Below, in pieces: positions 2-44,212 of a stretch of DNA of 64,000 bases; position 1 is the stretch's first letter, and each line of letters opens with the position of its first letter. This DNA comes from Thermoplasmata archaeon. Its GTDB lineage: Archaea; Thermoplasmatota; Thermoplasmata; GCA-020350865. The stretch is taken from assembly GCA_020348445.1 (NCBI GenBank), contig CP070751.1, positions 516,594 to 580,593 on the forward strand, given 5' to 3'. Both the position numbers and the translations under genes were made by a program. A model generated the notes under the pieces. The model saw only the letters and a list, made by a program, of their open reading frames with translations. It had not been told where the DNA came from and did no database searches.

Positions 2-3000
2 TGCATTCACTTTTATTGTAACATTTTCTCCTAAATCCACATGTATAGGGTGAGAGGGAGAGCGAAACACGTTTTCACCATTCACAACCACTGAATTTGG
101 AACTATGTCAGGTCCGATTGTAAAATGGAGCACAAACTTATTATTTTCTTCATTTTGTTCTGGAAGGGCATCATCAGGATCAATGATTATTACGATATAA
201 AAATCTCCAGCTGAATTTGGAGGAAGCCACTCTCCGATAATCTCCCCTGAATCCTCGCCAGAAAGAAGCCCGGAAAGTGTGGTTGTATAAAACGGTCCTC
301 CCAGGGGGGTTCCCCTTGGAGTTGAATTGAAGAATGATATATTGTAAGATAAGGAGTCATCAACCCCAGATAAACCAAGGTTCGTTGCATTTGCACTTAT
401 TGTGACTGGATCATTTGCTGTAGCGTTCCAGGAAATGCCGGGATCATTTGCATCGTTTCCATCAACACGAACCTCAGATATTGCATAATCAGGGGAGAAA
501 GCCAGATGCAACACAAAGACATTGTTTCCCTCGTCTATCTCGGTTGTTGTCTCGTTGTAATCGATTATAATCGCTATATAGAAATCCCTATTTTCATTGG
601 GCACATACCAAAACGCCGTCTGAGTAACGGAAGATTCACCTGCACCAAGACCCGGTAATCCATAAATCATCTGAATCGGGTTTGAGCCTATTAAATCCCC
701 CTCACTTGTGGAGTTCCAAATTGCTATGCTATAGGTGATATTTGAAGAGACTCCGGAAAAACCCGTGTTTTTTGCCACTACACCTATTTCAACTGGTATC
801 CCCAAATCCACATACCAGATAATGCTGGAATTTGATGCATCCATTCCATCCACGGTAATGTTTGCTGGAACATAGTCAGGGCCTATTGCGAAGTGTAGAA
901 CAAAGGAATTATTATCCTCGTCCACCTCCAAGATCTCGTTTCCCCAATCCACGATAATCTCCACAAAATGATCCCCAAGCAATGTAGGTGCCCGCCAAGA
1001 AAATAAAACCGTGCCCGAGTCTTGATATTGTCCCAAGGGAGCTATGGTCAAATTCAAGGGATTGCCAAAACCCGTGAGATTATAAAGACTTACATTAAAT
1101 GAAATACCCGAAGAAAAGTAGCCTATGTTCGTTATGTTCACTCCGATGAGCACCAAATCCCCTGAATCGGCGTACCATATCTTAGATTGATCAAGAGCGT
1201 CTTCACCGTCTATGCTTAAATATGATATTATAAGTTCTGCAGGGGCCTCTGTTTCGAAAGTCCATGAATAAGCATCGTCTTCATAGCCATCAGGATCGCC
1301 GTTTTCGTTGCCGTCCAGTTGCTCGCCAAATATGTTCTTTGCAGTGATATTTATTCTCACTTCATAAAGAGTACCGTATTTCAAATCAAATTCAGGGAGA
1401 AAGTATGTCCTGTTATCCTCCCAAATGAAGCTTCCGTCATCTTTGTCCCATATGGTTACACCATCAGTGATGGTAAATGACTCCAATACAGAACTCTGAT
1501 TCATCTCTTGGCTGAAGTTTATCTCAATCTCGGCATCAATATCAACATCGGTTCCCGAAGGCAGGGCCTCGTGTACTACAGGAAGTCCTATTTCTGGATC
1601 GTAGATGGTCTTAAATGTCCATGTATAATCATCTATTGGGGAGCCTTCACCTGCACCGTTTGCATTTCCATCCAATGTGTTGTCATGCCAATCAAAGGCA
1701 GTGCCCTTTAAGGTTACCGTGTAAAACTGGCTATAATTGAAGGGGGAGGACGGAATAAAGGTCATGATATAAGAGCTCCTTCCCCACGATCCATCTGCTG
1801 AGGTCCAGGTTATGGTACCATTTGTATAACTGAAAGCATCCTCCACAGAAGTTTTGTTCATGAGCTCGCTAAAGTAAATTTTGATGGGAGAATCTATATC
1901 CACCATGTTTCCTGTTGGTTGGACATTTAAAATCGAAGGGGGAGTGATATCGTATCTTGTGGTTGTAAATGACCATGAGTAATCATCTGTGGGTGAACCT
2001 TCTGCCAGCCCGTTTGCGTTGCCGTCCAAGGTATAACCAACTATGTCCTGTGCAATATTCCCGTTGATTGTGACTGTATATTCAGTCAAATCCAAAAACT
2101 CCCATTTGGGATGAAAATAAAGCGTATTGTTATCCCATGAAAATTCACCAGGTATCTCGGGATATAAGGAAAATGCAGATTCTGCGTCCTCTCGAATCAT
2201 TGTCTCGCTGAATGTGATATTTATCGCGGAGGTGTTCGTGAGAACTGCAAATCCTGTAGGAAAAACCCCTGTTATCTGAGGTGGTGTCGTATCAGAAGGA
2301 TTTTCAGTATAGAATACCAGGATGAAGGGATTTTTAAGACTCCTACCAGATCCACCAGTCGCATTTGTTTTAACTGTGACCGAATAAAACCCACCCGTAA
2401 GAAGGTCGCTTGTAAAGGTTATGATAAGCCTCTTGTTTGAGTTTTGCCAGTCATATGAAAGAATCGGGATAAAAGGTTCAACAGTGATGTTGCCTTCAAA
2501 AGTCCCTTTAATCGCGCTCTCAGAAAGGTCAAAGGTTACAGTGGTATCCACTGCAACTAATATGGATCTATTTACAGGCGTAGAGCTCATAATTTTAAAT
2601 ATTGTGTTGTTGAAATCAACCAAAGGATATCTGTCCACTCCATTGATTTGTATGGGATAAGGCTCGTCTCCTATCCCGTTCGCATCAAGATCAATACCAT
2701 CGTAATCTCCCCAGTAGTTGCCCTCTGCGCCGTCATCCCACTGATTTTGGGAGTTGGAACTGTACGAATAGTATGTATGTCCTTTTACGGTGTTGTGGTG
2801 AATTAAATTGTCATAAGAGGGGCCTAGCAAGAAGATGCCGTAGTAATTATTGTAAAGCTCGTTTTCGGAAATCACACCATTTTTCGTACCCACATACGAA
2901 ATTCCATAAAATTTGTTGGTGGAGATGTTGTTGGAAATTACATTTATATCCTCACACTGCTGTGCTGAAATGGCAATATCATTTGAAAATATATGGCTGT

Positions 3001-5877: not shown

Positions 5878-6426
5878 TTGCCCGATGAAAAACCCATTAA
5901 ATTGAAGCTTTGTTTACTTGGACCAGGTAATGTTGGAAAGACGAGTTTAATTAAGAAATATGTTTTTGACGAGTTCGATGACAAATACATAAGTACCCTC
6001 GGCACAAAGGTAACAAAGAAAGAAATGACTGTTCAGCATCCGAATAATGGTACGTCCAAGGATATAAACCTGATGATCTGGGACATCATGGGCCAGCAGG
6101 GTTTCCGTCAGTTACTTCAGCAGTCCTATTTTTTTGGAGCCCATGGAATAATGGGTGTGTGTGATGTCACAAAAGAAAACACACTCACAGAACTTCATGA
6201 TTGGATGAGAGCGGCATTTGGTGTGACCAATCAGGTACCCGCCGTGATCCTCGGTAATAAGTGCGACCTTTCTGAGCAACAGGAAATCAATCTGGATGAT
6301 ATGAACAATTTTGCCTCTGTTTATGATAACTCAGTGGCGTACTTATCAAGTGCCAAAACAGGAGAGAACGTTGAGCTTGCCTTCAAACTATTGGCCCAAA
6401 AAATTATAGAAATAGTGTTTGATTAG
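5878..6426 (+). CDS. Rab-like small GTPase (Ras superfamily)
   Basis: G1 GPGNVGKTS, G2 STLGT, G3 WDIMGQ, G4 NKCD, G5 SAKTG; no C-terminal Cys prenylation motif. Confidence 0.92.
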   Translation: MPDEKPIKLKLCLLGPGNVGKTSLIKKYVFDEFDDKYISTLGTKVTKKEMTVQHPNNGTSKDINLMIWDIMGQQGFRQLLQQSYFFGAHGIMGVCDVTKENTLTELHDWMRAAFGVTNQVPAVILGNKCDLSEQQEINLDDMNNFASVYDNSVAYLSSAKTGENVELAFKLLAQKIIEIVFD

Positions 6427-14153: not shown

Positions 14154-17100
14154 ATGGCATATAAGTACCAAGTGACGAAAATGATAGGAGAGCAATCCAA
14201 ATTCAAACCAGGCATAACCATTCACCTTATCTATATCTTGGCATTGATTGGCTTTATGATTTTTAGCTTTCTATCTAGCACCATGGCCTTGTCTATTGTA
14301 TCCACTCCAAACACCGAGCAATCGAGAGTATATCAAATTCCTGAGCCCTCCTCGAATATGCACATTTATATGAAGGCCGCATGCTTCGATCCTATAAAAG
14401 AAGAGCCAGGGATATCACCTGAGTGGACTTATACCTCGCCCAATCGCTATTTTTTGGTGCAATTTCATGGTCCCATTCAATCCCAATGGATTACGGACAT
14501 CCAATCATCTGGAGCTGTCATCTTGGGATACATACCGCAATACTCTTACTTACTCTCCATGGATATGGATGTGAAAGAGAGAATTGAAAATCTCCAATTT
14601 ATCAGATGGATTGGTTTATATCATCCAGCATATAAGATTCAAAGCCACCTTTATGAGAAACAAGGAGAAATCGAGCTCAATTTGCTGGTCTTTGAAGATC
14701 ATCATGACAATCTACACAAAGTGAGAACTCAACTGATGGCAATGGGGGGGGAAATTACTTATGCGGGGGAGGACAATCATATAATAAGGGTGAAGATAGA
14801 CGCATCCGAGTTAAAAAGCATAGCATTTATACCTGAGGTGGAATGGATCGATTTATACTCAAAACCTGTTGCTACAATGAATAAGATCCGCGCTTTCACA
14901 GGGGCCAACACCCTCTCTTCTGCTGGTTTCACAGGCTCCGGCATTGTGGGTGAAGTAAAGGACGACGGCATAGACCAAAGTCATCCGGATTTTGATGGAC
15001 AGCTGATAGGCACAGATGGTGGTCCTCCAAACGCATCACACGGCACTTGCGCTTTCGGTGTAGTGTTTTCCAATGGTGGAGGTGATTCAAATGCCATGGG
15101 AATGCTTCCCGGGGGAAAGGGTGTTTTTTGTGATTGGGGTGTCTCTACTACAACTTCTATTAGCAATCTCGTCTATACCTGGGGGGGTGTATTTCAGAGC
15201 AACAGTTGGAGTGCAGGTGCAGATGATAGCACCTACACCACAGTTTCTTTTGAGAACGATGAAGCTATAGACGATTTTGATATCGTCATGCTCCATTCAG
15301 CAGGCAATGACGGAATTGCACAGGAGACATGCACCCAGGACTCAGTGGCCAAGAATGTCATAGGCGTGGGTGCCGTGACTCATTATGACAATATCCTTAG
15401 ATCCGACGACAAATGGGTACTTTCGGTTGCAGGTAGCACCCCTGCACAGGGTCCTGCTTCCGATGGAAGGGTAAAACCAGATCTGGTGGGGCCTTTTGAT
15501 TCCATCTACACCACGGATGTTGTTGGAAATGGCGGATATAATCCTGGGGACTATTACAATTTCGCAGGAACAAGCGGTGCCACACCAGTTGTCGCAGGGG
15601 CTGTGGGTTTGGTTTACCAGATGTACAAGGAAAATTTTTTTGGTAACAACCCAGGGGGAGGGCTACCCCACGCCTCTACTGTCAAGGCCTTATTGATCGC
15701 AAATGCATATCAGTACGATTTCTCAAAGGCGAACAGGTTTCAGCAGGGTTGGGGAGGGGTGGATGTGGGGCGTGTATACGAAATGGGCCAGAATCACTTT
15801 ATCGTGAATGAAGATGACTCCCTTCAAACAGGTTTCAGTGAAATATATGAGATCACAACTCAAGGTGGGGAGCCCTTGAAGATATCCTTGGTATGGACGG
15901 ATTTACCACAACCACTTCCCGCAACAAAGCCTCTCATCAACGATTTGCATTTAAAGGTAACAGACCCCAACAATGTCGTTTACTGGGGGAATGTAGGGTT
16001 GAACACCTCCAAATGGTCCTCCGCAGGCGGAAGTGCCGATACAATAAACAATGTTGAGAACGTGTTCATAGAGAATCCCACACCAGGTTTCTGGACAGTG
16101 GAGGTGATCGGAGGAAATATTCCTTTGGATGGCGATCCCACAGTCCCGGGTGTAAACCAGGCATATGCTCTAATTGCATCAAATGCAATAGAAACATTGA
16201 CCGTCGATATTACGAATCCATCATCTTCCGAAATTTTGAATGATATCATTACGATAACAGGCATTTCATCTGAACATGTTAGCCAGGTTGAGGTGAGGAT
16301 AGATAGTGGTTCTTGGGAGTTGGCATCAGGAACCACAGATTGGTCTTTCGAATGGGACACCCGCTTATTTTCTGATGGGGATCATACAATATATGTTAGG
16401 GGAGTCAACGGAACAATGTATTCGAAAGTCAAGTCAGTTGAGGTATCGCTTGATAACACCCCCCCGACAACCTCGATTATTGTAGGAGATCCAAAATACC
16501 TAAACGGCTCCCAATTGTTCGTCTCTGATTTGACTCAATTCAATTTAAATGCCGCAGACAGCGGAAGCGGATTATTTTATACACGATATCGGATAGTTTA
16601 CGAGGGAAACGAGGTTGTGGGTTGGACAATTGGCAATTCATTTACACTTTCGTGGGGTGAGGGCTACTATACGATCCAATACGACAGTGAAGACATGTTA
16701 GGAAACAAAGAGGCTACCAATACAACCTTCGCGTATGTGGATTCATCCTCTCCAAAAACCAGTTTACAGATTGGAATGCCAAAATACCGCGACTACTCTT
16801 TTCATGTATTGAATGTTACTAACTCTACACCTTTTACCATATTGCTTTTGGAGGAGGCAAGCTCAGTGGATTTTTTCTGGTACACTATCGATGGGGCATA
16901 TTTTTTGGGTCAGACCTTTGATTTGACAGGTTTTCTTGACGGTATTCATATAATTACTTGGGGGAGCCAGGATGTCTTCGGCTTTAATGAATCTGGCAAT
17001 GAAATCAATGTGACTCTGGATTCAACAGCCCCCGATACATTCTTGGATATTGGTCCTTTAAAATTCCGCGAATTTTCATTTGACTTGTGGAATGTCACAT

Positions 17101-19673
17101 CAGCTACGCAATTCTCCCTTAGCGCGAGCGATACTCATGTTGGCATTAACTTCACATGGTACACCATTGATGGAATCTTTTTTATGGGGGATGAATTTAA
17201 CCTTACAGGCTTCCTGGGTGGCCTGCATACTATATGCTGGGGTAGCGAGGACCATTTTGGCAATAACGAAACTGACAAATCAAAGGATGTAATTCTTGAT
17301 TCCGGGCCCCCGAATACCATAATAGATGTGGGCCTGTCCAAGTTCCGTGGTTCTTCATTTGACTCCTGGAATGTTACTCCATCCACAAAATTTACCCTGA
17401 GCTCAATTGACGATGCAGCAGGTGTCGATTTCACATGGTATACCATCGATGGAGTCTATTTTGAGGGTACGAGCTTTACAATGGATGGTTTAGACGATGG
17501 GCTACATACAATAGCAATGGGAGCCATGGACAATTTAGGGAATAATAGATCCGAAGCCGCGATTACGGTTTACCTGGACTCCAGGTCACCTGAATCGAAC
17601 CTCTCAATCGGTGAGCCAAAATATCACTTGTCCATAGACGACATCTGGAATGTAACAGAATCCACCTCCTTTTTATTGTCATCCTGGGATGAGCATGCAG
17701 GTGTGAAGAGCATATGGTTCAAGATTGATGGTGTTTACTTTGTAGGTTCTTTATTCAATCTCTCAGGTTATACGAACGGATTTTATACAATTGTCTGGGG
17801 TGCAATAGATAACCTTGGACATAACGAGACTGGACATTCTACTACCGTATTTTTGGATACTGACTCTCCTTATACGGAACTCGCCATTGATGAGCCAAAA
17901 CATCGGGATAAAGACGGAGATATCTGGAATATATCGACATCCACCACATTTTCACTTTTATCTCTTGATAATCGCTCGGGTGTAAAATTCTCGTGGTTCA
18001 CCATTAATGGAATGTATTTTGAAGGCACAGGCTTTAGTCTTTTTGGCTATCCAGAAGGTTATTACATCATCATCTGGGGAAGTGAGGACTTCCTTGGGAA
18101 TAACGAGACAGGAAAAACAGAAACAGTTTATTTAAGCTCAGCCATTCCAACCACCACGTTGGAGATGAATGGGGAAAGATATTGGGACTCGATTAATGAT
18201 CTATGGATTGTTACAGATGAAACACTCTTTCTCTTGACACCCGAACCCACGCCTATAGGGATAAACTTCACCTGGTACATGATCGATTCTAATTATTTTG
18301 TTGGAGCTCAATTCTCGCTCTCCGGTATAGAGGAAGGAATTCACAGGATAAAATGGGGAAGTCAAGATACCATGGGTTTCAACGAAACTGAAAACTTCCA
18401 GTATGTGATTCTGGATTTACAACCTCCAGAGACAAATTTAACCATGGGCAGCCCCAAATATCGAGAACCTGAAGAAGAGGTTTGGGCCGTTAGTAGAAAC
18501 ACTAAATTCACAATTATATCCTCGGATAATCACTCTGGAGTATCCTCCATCTGGTACATGATAGATGACGATTTCTTTTTGGGCTCGAGCTTTACATTGG
18601 ATGGATACGATGACGGTCCACATAGGATAAGTTGGGGTGCAGTGGACAATCTCGGCTATAACGAGACAAAACGGGAAATGAATATCTTTATTGACAATGA
18701 CGGTCCAACAGTTACTTTTGAAATCGGGGAACCAAATATTCCCTACAACGATTATATTCTGATAAATTCTTCATCTGCCATATCTTTTAATGATGAGGAT
18801 TCGGGTGTTGGTAATACCGTGATTTATTACTCTATTGACGGTGGCATAACATATCAGGTGTACGATTCGCCTTTCACGGTCCCCTACAAAACCATGAGGA
18901 TCATTTACTGGGCTGAGGATATCCTGGGCAACAGGGCCAACGAATACGTAATCAACGTGAAGGTGGACAATACTGATACTGATTCTGATAAAATAGATGA
19001 TATCGTCGATACTGATGATGACGGGGACGGTTTACTTGACATCGAAGAAGATATAAATCAAAATGGAATCGTGGATCCTGAAGAGACGGATCCTAAGAAC
19101 CCAGATACCGATTATGACGGATATTTGGATGGAGACGATCCTTATCCTTTGGATAAGAGTGACTGGGAAGGGGAACAAGAATCCGTTTCTGTATTCCTCA
19201 TACTCATTATCCTTGTGATTGTGGTATTTGCTATCCTCTTTATCTTCATCATGATCATGGATAGGGACAGCATGGCAAAAACCCAATGGACTTTCCCTGC
19301 CCACCCACAAGTTCCTGGTCAAGGGGGATATGAACGGACTGGCCAACAAGAGACAGGTGTTAATATCCAAAAAGAGCAGGCTGAGTCAATAGGTGAAGAG
19401 GAGATTGCATTTGAACCCCATGATGAGGAATCCTATGAAGAGGAGGTCGAGTTTGAGCCCCATGATGAACCGACTGAAGAGGAAGTCGAATTTGAGCCGC
19501 ATGATGAAGAATCCTATGAAGAGGAGGTCGAGTTTGAACCACATGACGAACCGACTGAAGAGGAAGTTGAGTTTGAGCCCCACGATGAACCGGATGAGGA
19601 AGTTCAATTTGAACCGCATGATGAACTATCTGAAGGGGAGGGGGAAGAGGAGCCTCCACCTCCTGATGATTAA
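14154..19673 (+). CDS. Membrane-anchored S8 (subtilisin-family) serine protease with propeptide, P/PPC-like domain, about 9 Ig-like repeats, TSP3-like Ca loops, a TM helix and an acidic repeat tail
   Basis: Catalytic Asp (VKDDGID), His (HGTCAFG), oxyanion Asn (SAGNDG) and Ser (GTSGATPVVAG); VKPDLVGP; ~97-aa repeats DxxPPxT...WYxIDG...WGSxDxLGxNET; DTDxDG loops; TM VFLILIILVIVVFAILFIFIMIM. Confidence 0.93.
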   Translation: MAYKYQVTKMIGEQSKFKPGITIHLIYILALIGFMIFSFLSSTMALSIVSTPNTEQSRVYQIPEPSSNMHIYMKAACFDPIKEEPGISPEWTYTSPNRYFLVQFHGPIQSQWITDIQSSGAVILGYIPQYSYLLSMDMDVKERIENLQFIRWIGLYHPAYKIQSHLYEKQGEIELNLLVFEDHHDNLHKVRTQLMAMGGEITYAGEDNHIIRVKIDASELKSIAFIPEVEWIDLYSKPVATMNKIRAFTGANTLSSAGFTGSGIVGEVKDDGIDQSHPDFDGQLIGTDGGPPNASHGTCAFGVVFSNGGGDSNAMGMLPGGKGVFCDWGVSTTTSISNLVYTWGGVFQSNSWSAGADDSTYTTVSFENDEAIDDFDIVMLHSAGNDGIAQETCTQDSVAKNVIGVGAVTHYDNILRSDDKWVLSVAGSTPAQGPASDGRVKPDLVGPFDSIYTTDVVGNGGYNPGDYYNFAGTSGATPVVAGAVGLVYQMYKENFFGNNPGGGLPHASTVKALLIANAYQYDFSKANRFQQGWGGVDVGRVYEMGQNHFIVNEDDSLQTGFSEIYEITTQGGEPLKISLVWTDLPQPLPATKPLINDLHLKVTDPNNVVYWGNVGLNTSKWSSAGGSADTINNVENVFIENPTPGFWTVEVIGGNIPLDGDPTVPGVNQAYALIASNAIETLTVDITNPSSSEILNDIITITGISSEHVSQVEVRIDSGSWELASGTTDWSFEWDTRLFSDGDHTIYVRGVNGTMYSKVKSVEVSLDNTPPTTSIIVGDPKYLNGSQLFVSDLTQFNLNAADSGSGLFYTRYRIVYEGNEVVGWTIGNSFTLSWGEGYYTIQYDSEDMLGNKEATNTTFAYVDSSSPKTSLQIGMPKYRDYSFHVLNVTNSTPFTILLLEEASSVDFFWYTIDGAYFLGQTFDLTGFLDGIHIITWGSQDVFGFNESGNEINVTLDSTAPDTFLDIGPLKFREFSFDLWNVTSATQFSLSASDTHVGINFTWYTIDGIFFMGDEFNLTGFLGGLHTICWGSEDHFGNNETDKSKDVILDSGPPNTIIDVGLSKFRGSSFDSWNVTPSTKFTLSSIDDAAGVDFTWYTIDGVYFEGTSFTMDGLDDGLHTIAMGAMDNLGNNRSEAAITVYLDSRSPESNLSIGEPKYHLSIDDIWNVTESTSFLLSSWDEHAGVKSIWFKIDGVYFVGSLFNLSGYTNGFYTIVWGAIDNLGHNETGHSTTVFLDTDSPYTELAIDEPKHRDKDGDIWNISTSTTFSLLSLDNRSGVKFSWFTINGMYFEGTGFSLFGYPEGYYIIIWGSEDFLGNNETGKTETVYLSSAIPTTTLEMNGERYWDSINDLWIVTDETLFLLTPEPTPIGINFTWYMIDSNYFVGAQFSLSGIEEGIHRIKWGSQDTMGFNETENFQYVILDLQPPETNLTMGSPKYREPEEEVWAVSRNTKFTIISSDNHSGVSSIWYMIDDDFFLGSSFTLDGYDDGPHRISWGAVDNLGYNETKREMNIFIDNDGPTVTFEIGEPNIPYNDYILINSSSAISFNDEDSGVGNTVIYYSIDGGITYQVYDSPFTVPYKTMRIIYWAEDILGNRANEYVINVKVDNTDTDSDKIDDIVDTDDDGDGLLDIEEDINQNGIVDPEETDPKNPDTDYDGYLDGDDPYPLDKSDWEGEQESVSVFLILIILVIVVFAILFIFIMIMDRDSMAKTQWTFPAHPQVPGQGGYERTGQQETGVNIQKEQAESIGEEEIAFEPHDEESYEEEVEFEPHDEPTEEEVEFEPHDEESYEEEVEFEPHDEPTEEEVEFEPHDEPDEEVQFEPHDELSEGEGEEEPPPPDD
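19410..19625 (+). repeat. Coding tandem repeat: six FEPHDE-headed units (alternating 42 and 39 nt) in the protease C-terminal tail
   Basis: FEPHDEESYEEEVE / FEPHDEPTEEEVE twice, then FEPHDEPDEEVQ and FEPHDE. Confidence 0.95.
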
Positions 19674-37696: not shown

Positions 37697-40600
37697 TTAC
37701 CCTTCATCCCACTCAACAACCACGATCCCGATTACCGCCTTCTCGCCAGCCAGTTCCTTCTCCACAACGTAATAACCTGAATCCCCTCCCTCGAAAATAT
37801 TGTCGAATGGAAACTCCACAGAATATGAGCGAGTTTTTGATGTGATGAGTTCCTTTTGGCCTTCAAGAATCTCGGCAGTTTTATCTGGAACAAAGATCTG
37901 AGTTTCTATGTAGTCTTCCTCTTTGATCTTCAATTCCTTTCTCATGTCATTTATGTACCCGATAAGCTCATCAACGATCCCTTCAGATTTCATCTCCTCT
38001 GTCAATTCTTTATCGATGTAAATCTTTCCCTTTTCGAACTCCTTTTCCACCACATTTTCAGGTGTGCTCAGCTTGAATTCCAACATAGCGTTTGTGATTT
38101 TTACAGGATAACCCTCTACACCAAGGGTGTATTCCCCTTCCTTTTCTAGGCTCTCTTTGATCTTCCATGGTGATTGATATCGAAGGAGAGTCATCACCTT
38201 GCTGGCCTGCTGCTTGTAGGCACGAAATATTACCTCTTTTTTTGGAATCAATTCCAAATTTAGACCCTGCCATTCCGTACCCGGCTTTAAGAGCTCCAAA
38301 TTCTTTGCCTTCACCTTTCTAATAATTGGGATCTCAAACTTTGTTACAGCGTCTCTTACCTCATCTTCCGAGGATTTTATCACTACATTCTTTATTGGAT
38401 CTGTTTCATTTAATCCAGATTCATTTCGCATACCTAAAATAACCTCGATAACCCCGTCTACTATTTTCAGATAGTGCTCTAGGCTGTCACCGATATCCCT
38501 TATAATATGCTCATCAACATCACTTAATAACGCATGTTTGAGCTCTTCCATTCCCTCCTTTTTTGTCCGGTATTCTGCACTGGTTTCCTCTGCTTCGCGG
38601 CTCATCTTTTCCAGGTAGTTCCACGCGTTTTCAAATCCCTCCTTTTCTATGATTTCGATGAGCTTATTGGTAAAGGTCTCAGGGCCCACGATGTCAACAC
38701 CCTCCTCGCTTGCAGCTTGGATCAGTCTGATCGTCGAGGCCACGGTTCCTGATTCAAATCCCTCAACCTCTGCTCCCTTTTCATCCGTGACCTTCATTAA
38801 CTTTTCTATTAGTTCTTCTAAACCTCCCAGTTTATCATAAGTACCATCCCAGTCTCCGAGTACAGAACCGTACTTCTGCTCCACTTCATTTACAACTTCT
38901 AACATGTATAGCGGCAGATATTTGGGTTCTCCCCCTATAAGGACGGCAACCAGGTAGGTATATCGACCATGCTCAATCATCAACTTGCTCGGTCCAAAAT
39001 CCATTCTTTTAAGACCCACATCCTCCATTCTCTTAAACGAATCCTTAACAAAATCCTGAATCGCTGTCAACATCCCACTGAACACATCACTGTCCACATC
39101 CGTCTGCAATCTTCTGGTAACCTGAGTTACCAAAATCCCGCTATTATGTATGAGAAATACATTTTCTATTGAGTATGTCCCGCTCTCATCAATTTCAATT
39201 TTCTTTCCCAGGGTAAGCTGATAGATGGTATCATCAAAGGCTCTTTGGTATGTAAGGAGGACATCTGTATCGAGATCTCCGGATTCTTTAGGTTTCAATC
39301 CTATTTCTATCTGCTTCTTCTCACCTGCATCGAGTTTTTCTAATCTGTCAAGCCCCTTAACTTCCACCTCCCCCTGAAAGCTGATATCCACATTTTTAGC
39401 TGCAAGGTCTCCTGTGTTGTCTATCTCGATTACACATTTGTTCCAATAATCAGCCTCCATGCCGCCCTTTGGAAGTTTCAAAGTAAACTTTGGGAATTTA
39501 CCTTGTATATACTCTTCTACATTGCTTGAGGTTATACCTCTTGCTTTTTCTATCAATTCCTTTGCCTCATGAAAGTGATCAATATTCAGCTCATTTTCGG
39601 CCTCAACCAAAAGATCATATGCCTCCTGAACATCAACCTTCATTTCCTTTATCTCGGCCAAAGTCTCCTTTACAGTTTCAAGTTCCACTTTTATATCGTG
39701 TTTTATCCTCAGGTCCTCGGCAAGTTTTTCTGCCTCATCAACATGTTCCTTTGCAGATTCGAATTTATTGGTTTTAAATTCCTTGTCTGCGAGAGCCAAA
39801 ATTGCCTCTGGTTTTTCGACATCAATTCCCATTTCCTTAAATTGTGATATAAGGACCATTGCGTTTTTGATCCTTCTCCATATTATGTCTGTCTTTTGCT
39901 TTAATTTCACTTCCTCAAGTTTCTTTTGGAATTTATCCTGAAAATTATCGATTTCTTCGAAGTTACCAGCATCTATGGCGCGTTCGGCCTCTTCAATTAG
40001 GGCCAAGAATTCATCCTCACTCATTCCCCCTTCCTTTGCAACCGACATAAGATCCCTCATAGCAGAAATCTTTGTCCTGGCGGTGTCGGTGCTTATCTCT
40101 TTTTCCACCTCTTTTCCTTTATTTTGAAGGTAGGACCATGCTCGTTCGAATCCCCCTTCTTCAATGTTCTCGAGAAACTCATTTATAAATGCTTCCTGTC
40201 CGCTCTCCAATACACCCTTTTCCTCAGCTTCCTCGATTTGCCTGATTGTGGAAGCTACCAATCCTGATTCAAATCCTACAATATCTGCACCTTTCTCGTC
40301 AGTGACCTGCAACAGCTTCTTAATGTAAATTTCTATTCCTTCGAGTTGGGAAAGATCACCACGCCATCCTTCAAGAATAGCGCCGTACTCCTCCTCCAAT
40401 TCCTTTATCACCTCAACCATATACAATGGAAGGTATCTTGGCTCACCGCCTGCAAGTATAGCAGTAAGAAAGATGTCGTGACCGTGCTCAATCAATATCT
40501 TGTTTCCGCCAAAGTCCATTCTCTTAAGTCCCACATCATCTGTTCTCTGAAAGGAATCCTTTATGAAGTCCTGAACAGCCGTGAACATACCGCTGAATAT

Positions 40601-43600
40601 GTCTCTGTCAAGTTCTGTTTCCATTTTTCTGCTAGCTTGGCTGATAAGGATACCACTGTTGTGTATCAGCAGAACCTCTTCTATCATGTAAGTGCCACTA
40701 GCGTCAGCTATGATATTCTTCCCGATATTTAGCTGATAGATGGTATCATCAAAAGCCCTTTGATAGGCCAAAACAACATTCATATCCAATTTTCCGGCTT
40801 CTTTTGGTTTTATACCGATGTCCACCTGCCATGTCTCTCCAATTTCGATTTTTTCAATTCTTTCTATGCCTTTAACCTCCAAATTTCCGCTGATGCTTAT
40901 GTTCACATTCTTTGCATAAAGTTCCCCTATATTTGAAATCTCTATTTGACATTTGTTCCATACATCGGCCTCCATTCCCCCCTCCGGTATATCTAATGTG
41001 AACTTTGGATATTTCCCTTCGATAAAATCCTCAATATTATTTGAAATGATGTTCCTCGCCTTTTTAATCAATTCCCTTGCTTTTTCCAAGTTGAACACTA
41101 TTATCTCATTCTCTGCTTCAATCAAAATAACATCCGATTCACCAACATCAACACCCAACTCCCTGATCTCATCTTGGGTCTTGCGTACAGAATTTAGCTC
41201 GATTTCTACATCATGCTTTCGCCGCATTTCATCGGCAATCTGTTCAGCTTCATCCACGAGCTCCTCTGCTTTTTCGTATTCACCTGCCTTAAACTTTAAA
41301 TCGGCCATGGCCAAAAGCTCCTCTGGCTTTCCCACATCAACTCCCATATCCTTAAACTGAGAAATCAGAACCAAGGCGTTATTTATCCGCCTTTCGATGA
41401 TATCTGTCCTTTGTTTAAATTTAGCTTCTTCCATTTTTTTCTCGAATGTATCCTTGTATTCATCGATAACGTCAAAATTTTCAGAGGCAAGGGCTGACTC
41501 GGCCTCGCTAACTATAGAGAGGGTTTCTTCGGTGCTTATACCCCATTCCTTTGCAGAGGATAAAAGGTCTCTCATAGCCGATATCTTTTCTTTGGCCTTC
41601 TCGGTATTTATTTCCTTAGTTACATATTCTCCTTTATCTTCAATATAGTTCCAGGCATGTTCAAATCCCATATTTTGCATGGTTTCTATGAACTCTTCTA
41701 CAAAGGCTTCCTGCCCCCCCTTGAGAATACCATCAGCTTCAGCAGCCTCAATGAGTCTTATTGTCTCAGCAACCTTACCAGATTCGAATCCAGCTACATC
41801 AGCACCTTTTTCATCTGTTACATGCAGAAGTCTTGCAATAATTTCGTCAACACCATCCACCTCTGAATGGTCCCCCCGCCATTTTTCAAGAACAGGACCG
41901 TATTTCTCTTGCACCTCCCTTAGAATCTCCACCATGAACAGCGGTAAAAATCTCGGTTCACCTCCAATAGTTATGGCTGTAAGAAAAATATTATTCCCGT
42001 GCTCTAGTAATATCTTATTTGCCCCGAAATCCATCCTTTTTAGCCCCACATCAGCGGTTTTTTGAAAAGAATCCCTGATAAAATCCTGAACAGCCGTGAA
42101 CATCCCGCTAAATATATCTCTGTCAATATCCATCTCCATTTTTCTGCTGGCTTGGGAAATGAGGATGCCGCTTCTGTGTATCAAAAGTACCTCTTCGATA
42201 AGGTAGGTTCCGCTGGTGTCAGCCATGATCTTCATCGCCATATCGAGCTGGAAAACGGTTTCATCAAAGGCTCTTTGATATTTGAAGAGAACATCCATAT
42301 CGAGTTTTCCAGACTCCTTTGGTTTTACCCCGATTTCCATACGTTTTTTCTCACCTGCTCCCAGCTTTTCGATTCTGGAAAGCCCCTTTACATCCATGTC
42401 ACCCTTGAAAATCATATCAACATTTTTAGCCCCTATATCACCTGTGTTAGCTATCTCGATTGTACATTTATTCCATGTATCTGCCTCTATACCGGTTTCA
42501 GGGAGTTTTACCAAAAACTTGGGGGATTTGCCCTCGATGAAGTCCTGAATTCTGTTTGAACTGATGCTTTTTGCTTTTTGAATCAATTCTGTTGCCTGGT
42601 TAACATTGTTGGCCCCAATTTCAATCTCAGCTTGGGTCAATAGAGAATTTGCCTCTTCAATATCGACACCTGAATCCCTTGCTTCAGTTATTATGTTTTT
42701 AATGGACTCAAGTTCATGTTCTGTGTCGTGTTTCTGATGATGCTCTTTTGCTGTTTTTTGGGCATTATCCGCGTGCTCATCGGCTTTTTCGAAATTATGT
42801 GCGGACAATTCTTGATCTGCAAGCATCAGAAGTTCCTCGGCCCTTTCGACTTTTATCTTCTGTTCTTTTAATTGGGCAATCATAGCTCGGACTTTCTCGA
42901 TTTTCTTACCGATTATATCGGTCCTGTGCATTACTTTGGCTTCATCCAGCTTATCCTCAAATGACTCCTTGTACTCCTCAATTATGTCGAAATCCTTGGC
43001 CTCGAATGCCTCCTCGGCCTTTTTTAGCAGGGTCATGAATTCTGGTCCCTCTATCCCCAATTCCTTTGCTGAAGTTAAAAGGTCCCTCATGGCAGTTATT
43101 CTTGCCCTAGCCATCTCCGCACTTATCTTTCTTTCAGCCTCACTGAAAATCATATCGATCTTCTCGAGATCCACGAGCTTTGCTTTGGAGAACAGATCGG
43201 ATGCAAGACTTCCTATGGGTATATTCAATGATTTGGCTATTGCATTTAACTCCGAGATTATCTGTTCTATTTCTGAATGGTCTATTTTCTCAGCTGCCAC
43301 CTTGGCCCTTTCAAAGAGCATTCTTAAATCAGTTGCATCAAGGCCTCTTGCCTCGGCCTTATGCATTATATGGTCTATGGTTGCTATCAAAACGTTTGCG
43401 GCTTTGCGTTCCATGGCCTTTTTAATCCTTCTTTTTATCTTCCTAATCAGGCTTCTGACCTCTGCATAATCTCGCATCTCCAGGGATGACTCCGCCTCTA
43501 CAAGCAGCTCCTCGATTTCCTCGGTCTGAACTCCCACGTGTTTTAAAGATTCTACTTCTGGTTTCAAACCCGCTATGAGTTCTTTAACCTTCATATGTTT

Positions 43601-44212
43601 TTGAAGTTTGGTTGCTGCGTTTTTTGCATTTCTTACCAATTGGCTGACAACACCGTAATCCTTTTTTTCCAGGGCGGCCCGAGCCTCATCTAGGAATTTT
43701 TCGGCCTCTGTTACATCAGCTCCCACCATTTTTGCGTTTGCGATATCGTTCTTACTATTTTCGATCATGAGATATGCCCTATGGTATCTCTTAGCCTCCT
43801 TGGCCTCACGCTTGGCAGATCTTATATGTTCACTAACATCACCGTACATCTTATTTTGAAGGGATTCCCTGGCCCTCTCAATAAAACTCTCGGCTGCGCT
43901 TGCATCGGCTCCGGCCCTTCTCGCATCATTTACCACAGGCAAGGCATGTTTGATAAGAAGATCAGCACGGTGATAGCGTTTTGCATCAGCAGCAGCGGTT
44001 TTAGCCTTTTTAACAGAGATCCTTACCTGTTTAATATTCAATTCAGAAAGAAAGGCCCTAGCCTCATCCAGGTACATCTTTGCCTCAGATAAATCTGCAC
44101 CTGTTTTCTCGGCCTCATTTATGTCGATTTCCGCACTTTTTACAAGTACTTCTGCGTCTTCAAGCTCTTTCGAGCTCACTTGGGGTCTTTCACCTGTATC
44201 TTCATCTGCCAC
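37697..44212 (-). CDS. Giant cytoplasmic repeat protein: N-terminal helical repeats + 3x(helical repeats, Ig-like, longin-like) + IleRS C-terminal-like region
   Basis: 2171 aa, GTG start with a GGAGG RBS, no signal peptide or TM helix. Three modules have an exact 505-aa period. C-terminal LTEEMKSEGIVDELIGYINDMRKELKIKEEDYI resembles the type-2 IleRS tail. Confidence 0.9.
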   Translation of the reverse strand: MADEDTGERPQVSSKELEDAEVLVKSAEIDINEAEKTGADLSEAKMYLDEARAFLSELNIKQVRISVKKAKTAAADAKRYHRADLLIKHALPVVNDARRAGADASAAESFIERARESLQNKMYGDVSEHIRSAKREAKEAKRYHRAYLMIENSKNDIANAKMVGADVTEAEKFLDEARAALEKKDYGVVSQLVRNAKNAATKLQKHMKVKELIAGLKPEVESLKHVGVQTEEIEELLVEAESSLEMRDYAEVRSLIRKIKRRIKKAMERKAANVLIATIDHIMHKAEARGLDATDLRMLFERAKVAAEKIDHSEIEQIISELNAIAKSLNIPIGSLASDLFSKAKLVDLEKIDMIFSEAERKISAEMARARITAMRDLLTSAKELGIEGPEFMTLLKKAEEAFEAKDFDIIEEYKESFEDKLDEAKVMHRTDIIGKKIEKVRAMIAQLKEQKIKVERAEELLMLADQELSAHNFEKADEHADNAQKTAKEHHQKHDTEHELESIKNIITEARDSGVDIEEANSLLTQAEIEIGANNVNQATELIQKAKSISSNRIQDFIEGKSPKFLVKLPETGIEADTWNKCTIEIANTGDIGAKNVDMIFKGDMDVKGLSRIEKLGAGEKKRMEIGVKPKESGKLDMDVLFKYQRAFDETVFQLDMAMKIMADTSGTYLIEEVLLIHRSGILISQASRKMEMDIDRDIFSGMFTAVQDFIRDSFQKTADVGLKRMDFGANKILLEHGNNIFLTAITIGGEPRFLPLFMVEILREVQEKYGPVLEKWRGDHSEVDGVDEIIARLLHVTDEKGADVAGFESGKVAETIRLIEAAEADGILKGGQEAFVEEFIETMQNMGFEHAWNYIEDKGEYVTKEINTEKAKEKISAMRDLLSSAKEWGISTEETLSIVSEAESALASENFDVIDEYKDTFEKKMEEAKFKQRTDIIERRINNALVLISQFKDMGVDVGKPEELLAMADLKFKAGEYEKAEELVDEAEQIADEMRRKHDVEIELNSVRKTQDEIRELGVDVGESDVILIEAENEIIVFNLEKARELIKKARNIISNNIEDFIEGKYPKFTLDIPEGGMEADVWNKCQIEISNIGELYAKNVNISISGNLEVKGIERIEKIEIGETWQVDIGIKPKEAGKLDMNVVLAYQRAFDDTIYQLNIGKNIIADASGTYMIEEVLLIHNSGILISQASRKMETELDRDIFSGMFTAVQDFIKDSFQRTDDVGLKRMDFGGNKILIEHGHDIFLTAILAGGEPRYLPLYMVEVIKELEEEYGAILEGWRGDLSQLEGIEIYIKKLLQVTDEKGADIVGFESGLVASTIRQIEEAEEKGVLESGQEAFINEFLENIEEGGFERAWSYLQNKGKEVEKEISTDTARTKISAMRDLMSVAKEGGMSEDEFLALIEEAERAIDAGNFEEIDNFQDKFQKKLEEVKLKQKTDIIWRRIKNAMVLISQFKEMGIDVEKPEAILALADKEFKTNKFESAKEHVDEAEKLAEDLRIKHDIKVELETVKETLAEIKEMKVDVQEAYDLLVEAENELNIDHFHEAKELIEKARGITSSNVEEYIQGKFPKFTLKLPKGGMEADYWNKCVIEIDNTGDLAAKNVDISFQGEVEVKGLDRLEKLDAGEKKQIEIGLKPKESGDLDTDVLLTYQRAFDDTIYQLTLGKKIEIDESGTYSIENVFLIHNSGILVTQVTRRLQTDVDSDVFSGMLTAIQDFVKDSFKRMEDVGLKRMDFGPSKLMIEHGRYTYLVAVLIGGEPKYLPLYMLEVVNEVEQKYGSVLGDWDGTYDKLGGLEELIEKLMKVTDEKGAEVEGFESGTVASTIRLIQAASEEGVDIVGPETFTNKLIEIIEKEGFENAWNYLEKMSREAEETSAEYRTKKEGMEELKHALLSDVDEHIIRDIGDSLEHYLKIVDGVIEVILGMRNESGLNETDPIKNVVIKSSEDEVRDAVTKFEIPIIRKVKAKNLELLKPGTEWQGLNLELIPKKEVIFRAYKQQASKVMTLLRYQSPWKIKESLEKEGEYTLGVEGYPVKITNAMLEFKLSTPENVVEKEFEKGKIYIDKELTEEMKSEGIVDELIGYINDMRKELKIKEEDYIETQIFVPDKTAEILEGQKELITSKTRSYSVEFPFDNIFEGGDSGYYVVEKELAGEKAVIGIVVVEWDEG
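38545..43110 (-). repeat. Three tandem intragenic repeats of 1515 nt (505 aa); boundaries approximate
   Basis: The ATG of AMRDL falls at 43090, 41575 and 40060 (spacing 1515, 1515). YQRAFD, GLKRMDFG, GGEP, VTDEKGA and GFESG are present in every copy. Confidence 0.95.

What the first reader, a model, noticed from the sequence alone, without database searches (positions are those of the whole stretch)
37697..38480. Non-catalytic IleRS C-terminal-like region fused to the longin scaffold
Seen: VIEVILGMRNESGLNETDPIKNVVI ... LELIPKKEVIFRAYKQQASKV ... IYIDKELTEEMKSEGIVDELIGYINDMRKELKIKEEDYIE. It parallels type-2 IleRS tails (V..GR..R.....RQPL; VKPNF..LGP..G; LDT.LT.EL..EG.ARE..R.IQ.MRK....V.DRI), but there are no HIGH/KMSKS motifs in the protein. 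Established: the eukaryotic-type IleRS C-terminus contacts tRNA and mediates multisynthetase-complex assembly. Inference (speculative): it tethers tRNA or synthetases to a GTPase switch, analogous to amino-acid sensing by synthetases and longin-regulated Rag GTPases, which would suit a peptide-fermenting cell.
Basis: partly seen in the sequence, partly recalled or inferred. Interest (0 to 1): 0.7.

Follow-up and report, generated by a model that had tools for sequence, protein, structure and literature searches.

The report
IleRS tRNA-binding tail on longin scaffold
The last ~270 residues of a 2171-residue cytoplasmic archaeal protein are a true duplicate of the tRNA-gripping tail of this genome's own isoleucyl-tRNA synthetase, without the enzyme, welded to three longin-domain modules; this fusion is conserved across many Thermoplasmata and has not been described.

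Summary
Residues 1907-2164 of the 2171-aa ORF (window 37697-44212, minus strand) are 40% identical (E 2e-58) to the C-terminal tail of the genome's own IleRS. They pass Pfam DUF5915 (55 bits against a cut-off of 27). They fold with pLDDT 94 into the IleRS tRNA-binding domains ARD2/C-ter A, INS/C-ter B and ARD3/C-ter C (Z 19.3 to PmIleRS2). The protein has no catalytic or anticodon-helical domain.

The junction is not a chimera. The longin domain and the tail lie in one frame in at least 45 of 301 Thermoplasmata genomes, in 10 families. The paralogue tails form one clade, and dN/dS is about 0.1.

The wobble-reading arginine is kept (R2091). Neighbouring basic residues that IleRS conserves are lost. 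The elbow-binding INS is the most conserved part.

The modules contain a true longin fold (Z 13.7 to Sec22).

My best reading (about 45%) is a non-catalytic tRNA-docking appendage on a multivalent scaffold. The main rival is a repurposed protein-binding module.

I found no evidence for a link to a GTPase or to amino-acid sensing. I class it as a new variant of the known aaRS-domain paralogues.

The parts
37697..44212 (-). Whole gene, 2171 aa (P0001). GTG start at 44212, stop at 37697-37699. Cytoplasmic and acidic (441 D+E against 300 K+R), with no TM segment.
   Evidence: orthologues of the same length and with the same N-terminus (P0003, P0009, P0012)
43133..44212 (-). N-terminal region (aa 1-360) of ~63-aa helical repeats
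   Evidence: internal repeat BLAST
41618..43132 (-). Module 1 (aa 361-865): helical repeats + CARDB Ig sandwich + longin fold (aa ~671-804) + helical linker
40103..41617 (-). Module 2 (aa 866-1370), same architecture; longin at aa ~1176-1309
38588..40102 (-). Module 3 (aa 1371-1875), the one folded. Helices 1-199, Ig 206-305, longin 310-444 (Sec22 Z 13.7), helices to 504.
38513..38587 (-). Linker helices (aa 1876-1900) between module 3 and the IleRS-derived part. No sequence similarity to IleRS ARD1.
38249..38512 (-). ARD2 / C-ter A (aa 1901-1988). Its helix carries R1929, equivalent to ScIleRS Arg838. The IleRS 'LRWP' motif reads NETDP here.
   Evidence: PMC11685878
38090..38248 (-). INS / C-ter B (aa 1989-2041), the basic helix-turn-helix subdomain that contacts the tRNA elbow in IleRS. 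It is the most conserved part among the paralogues and carries the paralogue-specific motif Q-x-P-W-K-I-K.
   Evidence: PMC11685878, PMC13752280
38003..38089 (-). Three beta strands (aa 2042-2070) connecting INS back to ARD2/ARD3
37700..38002 (-). ARD3 / C-ter C (aa 2071-2171), the wobble-base (N34) recognition domain of type-2 IleRS. Its helix reads YINDMRKELKI.
37940..37942 (-). Codon of R2091, the equivalent of ScIleRS Arg999 / PmIleRS2 R964, which reads the N34 carbonyl. Kept in 91% of the paralogue tails.
   Evidence: alignment, counts; PMC11685878, PMC13752280

Best explanation
The region is a duplicated, non-catalytic copy of the archaeal IleRS C-terminal tRNA-binding unit. That unit is ARD2/C-ter A with the inserted INS/C-ter B subdomain, followed by ARD3/C-ter C (Pfam DUF5915).

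Shown: the copy arose once within Thermoplasmata. It is fused to the C-terminus of a cytoplasmic scaffold built of one to three [helical repeats - Ig sandwich - longin] modules. It is kept under purifying selection.

Inferred: the tail most likely still works as an RNA-docking appendage. It would grip the elbow of an L-shaped tRNA through the basic, highly conserved INS subdomain. It may also touch the flipped-out wobble base through the retained arginine R2091. It lacks the ARD1 helical domain that reads A35/U36, and it has lost several IleRS-conserved basic residues next to the wobble pocket. Any tRNA binding should therefore be weaker and less isoleucine-specific than in the enzyme.

The scaffold would then hold tRNA, or a tRNA-like RNA, near whatever the longin domains bind. 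What that partner is remains unknown.
For: Homology and anatomy:
- DUF5915 at 55 bits.
- 40% identity, E 2e-58, to the genome's own IleRS residues 800-1072.
- AF2 model with pLDDT 93.7.
- Foldseek E ~1e-14 and VIA-align Z 19.3 (272 residues aligned) to PmIleRS2 with its resolved tRNA-binding domain; Z 16.7 to the ScIleRS-tRNAIle complex.

Not an artefact:
- Longin plus tail lie in one open frame in all 23 named MAG loci and in at least 45 of 301 class genomes from 10 families.
- 49 representative clusters carry module plus tail, 57 carry the catalytic body plus tail, and none carries both.
- The paralogue tails form one clade, SH-aLRT 99.
- dN/dS is 0.07-0.11 within the genus.

Retained RNA-binding features:
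- R2091 aligns with ScIleRS Arg999 and is kept in 91% of the paralogues. R999A in ScIleRS and R964A in PmIleRS2 abolish tRNA charging (PMC11685878, PMC13752280).
- INS is the most constrained region of the paralogues (entropy ratio 0.74 against IleRS) and stays net positive at +2.5, with near-invariant K142 and K144.
- The same INS fold is an elbow binder in GlyRS (Z 10.3, 27% identity).
- A second paralogue in this genome (P0165) joins one longin domain, three SAP nucleic-acid-binding motifs, ARD2+INS and a basic tail.
Against: - No RNA binding was or could be tested here.
- IleRS-conserved residues around the wobble pocket are variable in the paralogues: the RR at tail positions 210-211, Q213 and K217; the R/W of LRWP; W277 and G121. 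The recognition helix shifts from net charge -0.2 to -2.8.
- The retained Arg also has a structural role in IleRS (Arg838/Arg999 bind nearby loop backbones; PMC11685878), so its conservation does not prove base reading.
- ARD1, which supplies the essential A35/U36-reading arginine, is absent.
- The tail as a whole is strongly acidic (net -20).
- The same ARD3 fold serves as a protein-binding module in vertebrate UNE-I.
- One congeneric closed genome (G001) has a truncated orthologue without the tail.
Confidence: 0.45

Rival explanations
1. The tail is a repurposed protein-protein interaction module. It no longer binds tRNA but docks the scaffold onto a protein partner, for example IleRS itself, another translation factor, or copies of the scaffold. 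This would parallel the ARD3-like repeats of vertebrate IleRS UNE-I, which bind EPRS in the multisynthetase complex.
For: ARD3 of the model superposes on chicken IARS1 UNE-I bound to EARS1 (Z 12.4, rmsd 2.7, 91 residues). IleRS-specific basic residues near the wobble pocket are lost and the recognition helix has become acidic. New, paralogue-specific invariant residues have appeared that IleRS does not conserve (W106, G108, Y124, Q138, W141, K142). In families f15 and f20 the gene lies directly upstream of ileS on the same strand, in 8 genomes.
Against: No partner has been identified. In the genome under study the gene is 1.6 Mb from ileS. The most conserved surface, INS, is basic and is the tRNA-elbow binder in IleRS and GlyRS. 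Adjacency to ileS can equally be a relic of origin by tandem duplication.
Confidence: 0.3
2. The tail binds a nucleic acid other than tRNA, such as rRNA, another structured RNA, or DNA, using the basic INS helix-turn-helix.
For: The sister paralogue P0165 combines ARD2+INS (without ARD3) with three SAP motifs and a Lys/Arg-rich C-terminus. INS basic residues are conserved. The loss of anticodon-specific residues suggests the original ligand is no longer being read.
Against: There is no precedent for this fold binding anything other than tRNA or protein. No RNA gene or Rfam hit lies nearby. ARD3 with its Arg is retained and conserved in P0001-type proteins.
Confidence: 0.12
3. One reading: the tail brings tRNA or a synthetase to longin domains that regulate a small GTPase, giving a Rag/GATOR-like amino-acid sensor.
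For: Both halves are real: an IleRS tRNA-binding tail and longin folds resembling those of GTPase regulators and adaptors. The genome encodes at least one Ras-family GTPase (window 5878-6426).
Against: No GTPase gene is adjacent in the window or in any of about 25 related loci. The neighbours are housekeeping genes: a Mur-ligase-like gene, ileS, FEN1 and sugar metabolism genes. Longin folds also act as non-GTPase adaptors (SNAREs, sigma-adaptins). Nothing ties the protein to amino-acid sensing.
Confidence: 0.08
4. An artefact: a misassembled chimera of ileS 3' sequence and an unrelated gene, or a decaying pseudogene remnant.
For: None, apart from the unusual architecture. One relative (G001) has a truncated gene without the tail.
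Against: The genome is a single 5.16-Mb contig with a separate, intact ileS. The same junction occurs in independent MAGs from many studies. The frame is open over 6.5 kb. dN/dS is ~0.1.
Confidence: 0.01

Closest known systems
C-terminal tRNA-binding domains of type-2 / archaeal IleRS (Pfam DUF5915; ARD2-INS-ARD3, also called C-ter A/B/C)
   Same: Same sequence family: 40% identity to the host's own IleRS tail. Same three-subdomain fold (Z 19.3). Same position of the N34-reading arginine and of the C-ter A arginine.
   Different: It is detached from the Rossmann catalytic body, the editing domain and the ARD1 anticodon-helical domain. It is attached instead to a longin/Ig/helical scaffold. IleRS-conserved basic residues beside the wobble pocket are lost, while INS is more conserved than in IleRS, where it is often lost (PMC13752280).
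Vertebrate IleRS UNE-I repeats (multisynthetase-complex anchor, PDB 7wrs)
   Same: The ARD3-like fold (Z 12.4). It is a precedent for this fold being duplicated and reused for a job other than reading the anticodon.
   Different: UNE-I is an extra extension beyond ARD3 on a catalytically active IleRS and binds EPRS. The protein here has no UNE-I-type extension and no catalytic domain, and its partner is unknown.
Free-standing or fused aaRS-derived tRNA-binding modules (Trbp111, Arc1p, AIMP1/EMAPII) and aaRS-like paralogues (HisZ, AlaX, YbaK, SbzA)
   Same: The general principle: a synthetase-derived or synthetase-associated domain is used in trans or in a new protein. Trbp111 and Arc1p also recognise tRNA shape rather than identity. 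This comparison rests on my own knowledge and on the review PMC9437257.
   Different: The fold differs (those tRNA binders are OB folds). Known IleRS paralogues (IleRS2, SbzA) keep the catalytic domain (PMC9437257). I found no described paralogue made of the IleRS C-terminal domains alone.
Longin-domain adaptors and GTPase regulators (Sec22/VAMP7/Ykt6, sigma-adaptins, TRAPP, Mon1-Ccz1; Asgard Roadblock-Longin 8yqg)
   Same: The alpha/beta domain of each module has the beta-beta-alpha-beta-beta-beta-alpha longin fold (Z 13.7-10.4).
   Different: No Pfam longin hit. The domain is repeated three times, each preceded by an Ig sandwich. It occurs in Thermoplasmata rather than Asgard archaea or eukaryotes. 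No GTPase or SNARE context was found.

Membership tests
DUF5915 / type-2 IleRS C-terminal tRNA-binding domains | Profile match above Pfam's gathering score | tested here: met
   55.1 bits on the excised tail and 40.7 bits on the whole protein, against a cut-off of 27. Orthologues carry PF19302 in precomputed annotations.
DUF5915 / type-2 IleRS C-terminal tRNA-binding domains | Sequence homology to the tail of a bona fide IleRS | tested here: met
   40% identity over 258 aa, E 2e-58, to the genome's own IleRS. That IleRS has tRNA-synt_1 + Anticodon_1 + DUF5915.
DUF5915 / type-2 IleRS C-terminal tRNA-binding domains | Three-subdomain fold ARD2-INS-ARD3 | tested here: met
   AF2 pLDDT 93.7. Z 19.3 with 272 residues aligned to 8c8v; Z 16.7 to 8wnd_A.
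DUF5915 / type-2 IleRS C-terminal tRNA-binding domains | Arginine that reads the N34 carbonyl (Sc R999 / Pm R964) | tested here: met
   R2091 aligns with R999. It is kept in 91% of 44 paralogue tails.
DUF5915 / type-2 IleRS C-terminal tRNA-binding domains | Supporting wobble-pocket residues (Q961, K965, L969 of PmIleRS2) and the flanking RR | tested here: inconclusive
   P0001 has N, K and I at these positions and G, Y in place of RR. Across the paralogues Q, K and RR are variable (32%, 43% and under 30% consensus) against 80-92% in IleRS.
DUF5915 / type-2 IleRS C-terminal tRNA-binding domains | Binds tRNAIle | not testable with these tools
   No RNA-protein prediction or assay was available.
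Isoleucyl-tRNA synthetase (enzyme) | Class I Rossmann catalytic domain with HIGH and KMSKS motifs | tested here: not met
   No tRNA-synt_1 hit, no phmmer match to IleRS residues 1-790 and no such motifs.
Isoleucyl-tRNA synthetase (enzyme) | ARD1 anticodon-binding helical domain with the A35/U36-reading Arg | tested here: not met
   No Anticodon_1 hit. Sequence similarity to IleRS starts only at IleRS residue 800.
Longin domain | beta-beta-alpha-beta-beta-beta-alpha fold superposable on known longins | tested here: met
   Sec22 Z 13.7 (rmsd 2.4, 124 of 137 residues), VAMP7 Z 12.9, Ykt6 Z 11.1, Lokiarchaeal longin Z 10.4. Topology.
Longin domain | Sequence-profile membership (Pfam longin or Roadblock families) | tested here: not met
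   No longin or Robl_LC7 hit for P0001 at E<=1. There is one sub-threshold Robl_LC7 hit in a distant family member.
UNE-I (vertebrate IleRS MSC anchor) | Extra ARD3-like repeats beyond ARD3 on an active IleRS | tested here: not met
   The protein ends with ARD3 and has no catalytic domain. Only the fold of ARD3 resembles UNE-I.

The most novel reading that the evidence does not exclude
Thermoplasmata have a cytoplasmic, multivalent longin scaffold that uses an IleRS-derived reader to sense or sequester tRNA(Ile), for instance its charging state or its wobble modification. It would couple that signal to longin-dependent switching. This would be a prokaryotic counterpart of synthetase-linked nutrient signalling, functionally tied to the lineage's unusual IleRS-DUF835 fusion.
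Probability: 0.07. Interest if true: 0.9.

Novelty: new variant of a known kind. Interest (0 to 1): 0.6.

Why it matters
Synthetase-derived domains reused outside translation are a recurring source of new biology. For IleRS, however, only catalytic-domain paralogues are on record.

Here the complete tRNA-recognition tail has been copied once, detached from the enzyme and kept under selection for a long time on a giant repeat protein. That protein carries longin folds, a domain better known from eukaryotic and Asgard trafficking and GTPase regulation. This lineage is not close to eukaryotes.

If the tail still binds tRNA, the family is a natural example of tRNA recruitment to a non-translational scaffold. 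It would also be a ready-made system for asking what the INS and ARD3 subdomains can do on their own, which is an open question in current IleRS work (PMC13752280). If the tail binds protein instead, it is an archaeal parallel to the UNE-I solution of vertebrates.

Either way it gives a function-bearing handle on an otherwise opaque giant protein family.

Tried and rejected
- Complex prediction of the tail (alignment A4) against the C-terminal half of the genome's IleRS (ARD2-INS-ARD3, Zn ribbon, DUF835; alignment A5) returned 'no answer' (score 0.00). This is neither support nor evidence against binding.
- The protein-atlas search on the longin+linker part gave no usable hit.
- The search for related loci with the broad paralogue alignment A3 failed for lack of a conserved stretch. 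A narrower alignment, A4, worked.
- NCBIfam gave only a weak, far sub-threshold match to MupA (E 0.0057, 14 bits against a cut-off of 1900).
- A sequence search of the PDB gave only a marginal IleRS hit (E 0.0055). The structural search was what made the match clear.
- A whole-protein self-BLAST returned only the identity hit. Windowed BLAST was needed to show the repeats.
- Rfam found no RNA in the window.
- A neighbourhood comparison of about 25 loci found no conserved partner gene beyond ileS in two families and FEN1 in another subclade. No GTPase and no tRNA-modification gene appeared.
- Rejected: trans-complementation of a tail-less IleRS, because the genome's IleRS keeps the full tail.
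- Rejected: a secreted or S-layer protein, despite the CARDB domains, because there is no signal peptide or TM segment.
- Literature searches for DUF5915 and for IleRS C-terminal paralogues found nothing.
Full report
**What is there.** The finding lies at the 3' end of a 6516-nt ORF on the minus strand, window 37697-44212, giving 2171 aa (P0001). Windowed self-comparison shows three parts. First comes an N-terminal stretch of ~63-aa helical repeats (aa 1-360). Then come three tandem 505-aa modules (361-865, 866-1370, 1371-1875) that are 45-77% identical to each other. A unique C-terminal ~296 aa follows. The protein has no HIGH or KMSKS motif and no hydrophobic segment, and it is strongly acidic.

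**Is the tail really IleRS-like?** Yes.
- Pfam DUF5915 matches the excised tail at 55.1 bits (E 9.4e-15; cut-off 27) and the whole protein at 40.7 bits.
- The genome is a single 5.16-Mb contig, and a DUF5915 search of it finds its ileS.
- That IleRS (P0002, 1332 aa) has tRNA-synt_1, Anticodon_1 and DUF5915. Unexpectedly, it also has a C-terminal zinc ribbon and a DUF835 domain.
- P0001 residues 1907-2164 align with P0002 residues 800-1072 at 40% identity, E 2e-58.
- An AlphaFold2 model of aa 1876-2171, built on 115 aligned tails, has mean pLDDT 93.7.
- Foldseek places the model on type-2 IleRS structures at E ~1e-14.
- VIA-align gives Z 19.3 (272 residues) to Priestia megaterium IleRS2, which has a fully resolved tRNA-binding C-terminus, and Z 16.7 to the yeast IleRS-tRNAIle complex 8WND.

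In the nomenclature of the two recent structural papers, the tail comprises three subdomains (PMC11685878; PMC13752280):
- ARD2/C-ter A, aa ~1901-1988 plus strands 2042-2070.
- The inserted INS/C-ter B subdomain, aa 1989-2041.
- ARD3/C-ter C, aa 2071-2171.

Nothing in P0001 matches the catalytic body or the ARD1 anticodon-helical domain.

**Is the fusion real?** Yes.
- A word-indexed search returned 14 clusters of 1315-2188 aa with CARDB + DUF5915. One is named by NCBI 'DUF5915 domain-containing protein [Thermoplasmata archaeon]'.
- An exhaustive phmmer search with the tail found 495 representatives at E<=1e-3. Of the 164 proteins held, 57 contain the IleRS body, 49 contain the Ig+longin module, and none contains both.
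- In 23 named MAG contigs, the tail is preceded by one to three modules on the same strand whenever upstream sequence is held (one short contig, L029, starts too close to the match).
- I scanned 301 genomes of the class with a query spanning the longin domain and the tail. The two lie in one open frame in at least 45 genomes of 10 GTDB families: f1, f7, f9, f15, f20, f22, f25, f27, f29 and f32. One scanned genome, G097, is unpublished.
- A maximum-likelihood tree of 115 tails puts all 44 module-linked tails in one clade (SH-aLRT 99), next to the IleRS tails of the same genus (quick search, midpoint root). This points to a single duplication.
- Within the genus, dN/dS of the tail is 0.07-0.11, with dS near saturation.

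Misassembly and pseudogene readings are therefore excluded.

**What the residues say about function.** In yeast IleRS the flipped-out wobble base is read by Arg999, helped by Gln996 and the backbone of Leu1004. R999A abolishes charging (PMC11685878). The equivalent pocket in PmIleRS2 is Q961/R964/K965/L969 (PMC13752280). The HMMER alignment to 8WND puts P0001 R2091 on Arg999, inside the helix YINDMRKELKI.

I compared columns between 49 IleRS tails and 44 paralogue tails.
- The arginine is kept in 91% of the paralogues. Its IleRS-conserved neighbours are not: the RR two turns earlier falls from 82-92% to under 30%, Q213 from 80% to N at 32%, and K217 from 84% to 43%.
- The R/W of the LRWP motif, G121 and W277 are also lost.
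- The net charge of the recognition helix drops from -0.2 to -2.8.
- The INS subdomain behaves the opposite way. In IleRS it contacts the tRNA elbow (G19/U20) and is repeatedly lost in prokaryotes (PMC11685878; PMC13752280). In the paralogues it is the most constrained region (entropy ratio 0.74) and stays net basic.
- INS has also acquired near-invariant residues that IleRS does not conserve: Y124, Q138, W141, K142 and K144, forming the 'QxPWKIK' motif.
- The same INS fold superposes on the elbow-binding insertion of human GlyRS (Z 10.3, rmsd 1.6, 27% identity).

ARD1, which supplies the arginine essential for reading A35/U36, is absent. I read this pattern as retention of a shape-recognising, elbow-directed nucleic-acid contact, plus a possibly vestigial wobble contact, with loss of isoleucine-anticodon specificity.

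The same data leave room for a protein-binding role. The retained arginine also has a structural role (PMC11685878). ARD3 also has the fold of the UNE-I repeats that bind EPRS in vertebrates (Z 12.4).

**A second family member in the same genome.** A 1178-aa protein (P0165; L018:3500-7036, minus strand) has these parts in order:
- One longin+linker unit, 49% identical to that of P0001.
- About 450 aa of coiled-coil repeats.
- Three SAP motifs.
- ARD2+INS, then a proline-rich, Lys/Arg-rich end in place of ARD3.

Its tail is 42% identical to the P0001 tail and 31% identical to the IleRS tail. This pairing of the ARD2-INS unit with classical nucleic-acid-binding motifs is my main circumstantial reason to prefer a nucleic-acid ligand.

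**The scaffold.** An AF2 model of module 3 (36 aligned modules; pLDDT 82) shows about 200 aa of helical hairpins, an Ig sandwich (CARDB), a beta-beta-alpha-beta-beta-beta-alpha domain and a helical linker. An exhaustive structural comparison puts the alpha/beta domain on longin domains: Sec22 Z 13.7, VAMP7 12.9, synbindin 11.5, sigma-adaptins ~11, Ykt6 11.1, and a Lokiarchaeal longin 10.4. Foldseek also listed adaptor appendages and BBS9 for the Ig+alpha/beta pair. So 'longin scaffold' is structurally justified, although no Pfam longin model matches.

**Genomic context.** In the window the gene is flanked by a Mur-ligase-like gene, an MMPL transporter, a ferredoxin-like gene, a DHH phosphoesterase and ribosomal protein S15. 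The only small GTPase found is a Ras-family gene about 31 kb away.

In families f15 and f20 (8 genomes), the scaffold gene lies about 300 bp upstream of ileS on the same strand. This may be a relic of the duplication or a sign of co-expression. In another subclade the downstream gene is FEN1. A closed congeneric genome (G001) has a syntenic but truncated orthologue with no tail. The tail is thus not indispensable everywhere.

I put about 45% on a non-catalytic tRNA-docking appendage, about 30% on a repurposed protein adaptor, about 12% on another nucleic-acid ligand, and under 10% on the GTPase-coupled sensor.

I found no description of an IleRS C-terminal-domain paralogue in the literature searched. 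A review of aaRS paralogues lists only IleRS2 and SbzA for IleRS (PMC9437257). I class this as a new variant of a known kind, namely synthetase-derived domains reused in non-synthetase proteins.

Noticed in passing
L004:504-4502 (-) = G000:C1:2199003-2203001: The genome's own IleRS is 1332 aa. After the normal DUF5915 tail it carries a zinc ribbon, an acidic linker and a DUF835 domain. Across the class, IleRS open frames of 1300-2300 aa add HhH, double zinc ribbons, TPR and DUF835. I found no description of an IleRS-DUF835 fusion; the single paper mentioning DUF835 concerns two-component systems.
   Followed up: partly
L018:3500-7036 (-) = G000:C1:3106499-3110035: A second paralogue, P0165 (1178 aa). 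It has one longin unit, coiled-coil repeats, three SAP motifs, then IleRS ARD2+INS without ARD3, and ends in a Pro-rich, Lys/Arg-rich tail. Representatives of similar architecture exist (P0030, P0093).
   Followed up: partly
L019:3080-13579; L022; L031; L034/L047; L035: In two GTDB families (f15, f20) the scaffold-tail gene sits ~300 bp upstream of ileS on the same strand. This is a conserved gene pair that could mark the site of the original duplication.
   Followed up: partly
L046:2874-6995 (G001:C1:1466873-1470994): In a closed congeneric genome the syntenic orthologue (same upstream Mur-ligase-like gene) stops inside its second module and has no tail. Glycosyltransferase genes follow instead.
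   Followed up: partly
window 5878-6426 (+): A Ras-family small GTPase (Pfam Ras, E 5e-35) in a Thermoplasmata genome. It is the only GTPase seen in the parts of the window I scanned, about 31 kb from the scaffold gene.
   Followed up: no
tail model residues 112-174 (P0001 aa 1987-2049; window 38066-38254): The INS/C-ter B subdomain superposes closely on human GlyRS residues 442-506 (Z 10.3, rmsd 1.6, 27% identity). phmmer also gave weak GlyRS hits to the same stretch. This suggests a shared mobile tRNA-elbow module between IleRS and eukaryote-type GlyRS.
   Followed up: no
window 14154-19673 (+): An 1839-aa subtilase (Peptidase_S8) with several bacterial Ig-like domains, consistent with a protein-degrading lifestyle.
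   Followed up: no
module model residues 204-450 (for example window 38753-39493): The Ig sandwich followed by the alpha/beta domain drew Foldseek hits to AP2 alpha/beta appendages, COPI and BBS9 (E 1e-4 to 1e-5). The pair may therefore resemble adaptor 'ear' architecture as well as a plain longin.
   Followed up: no
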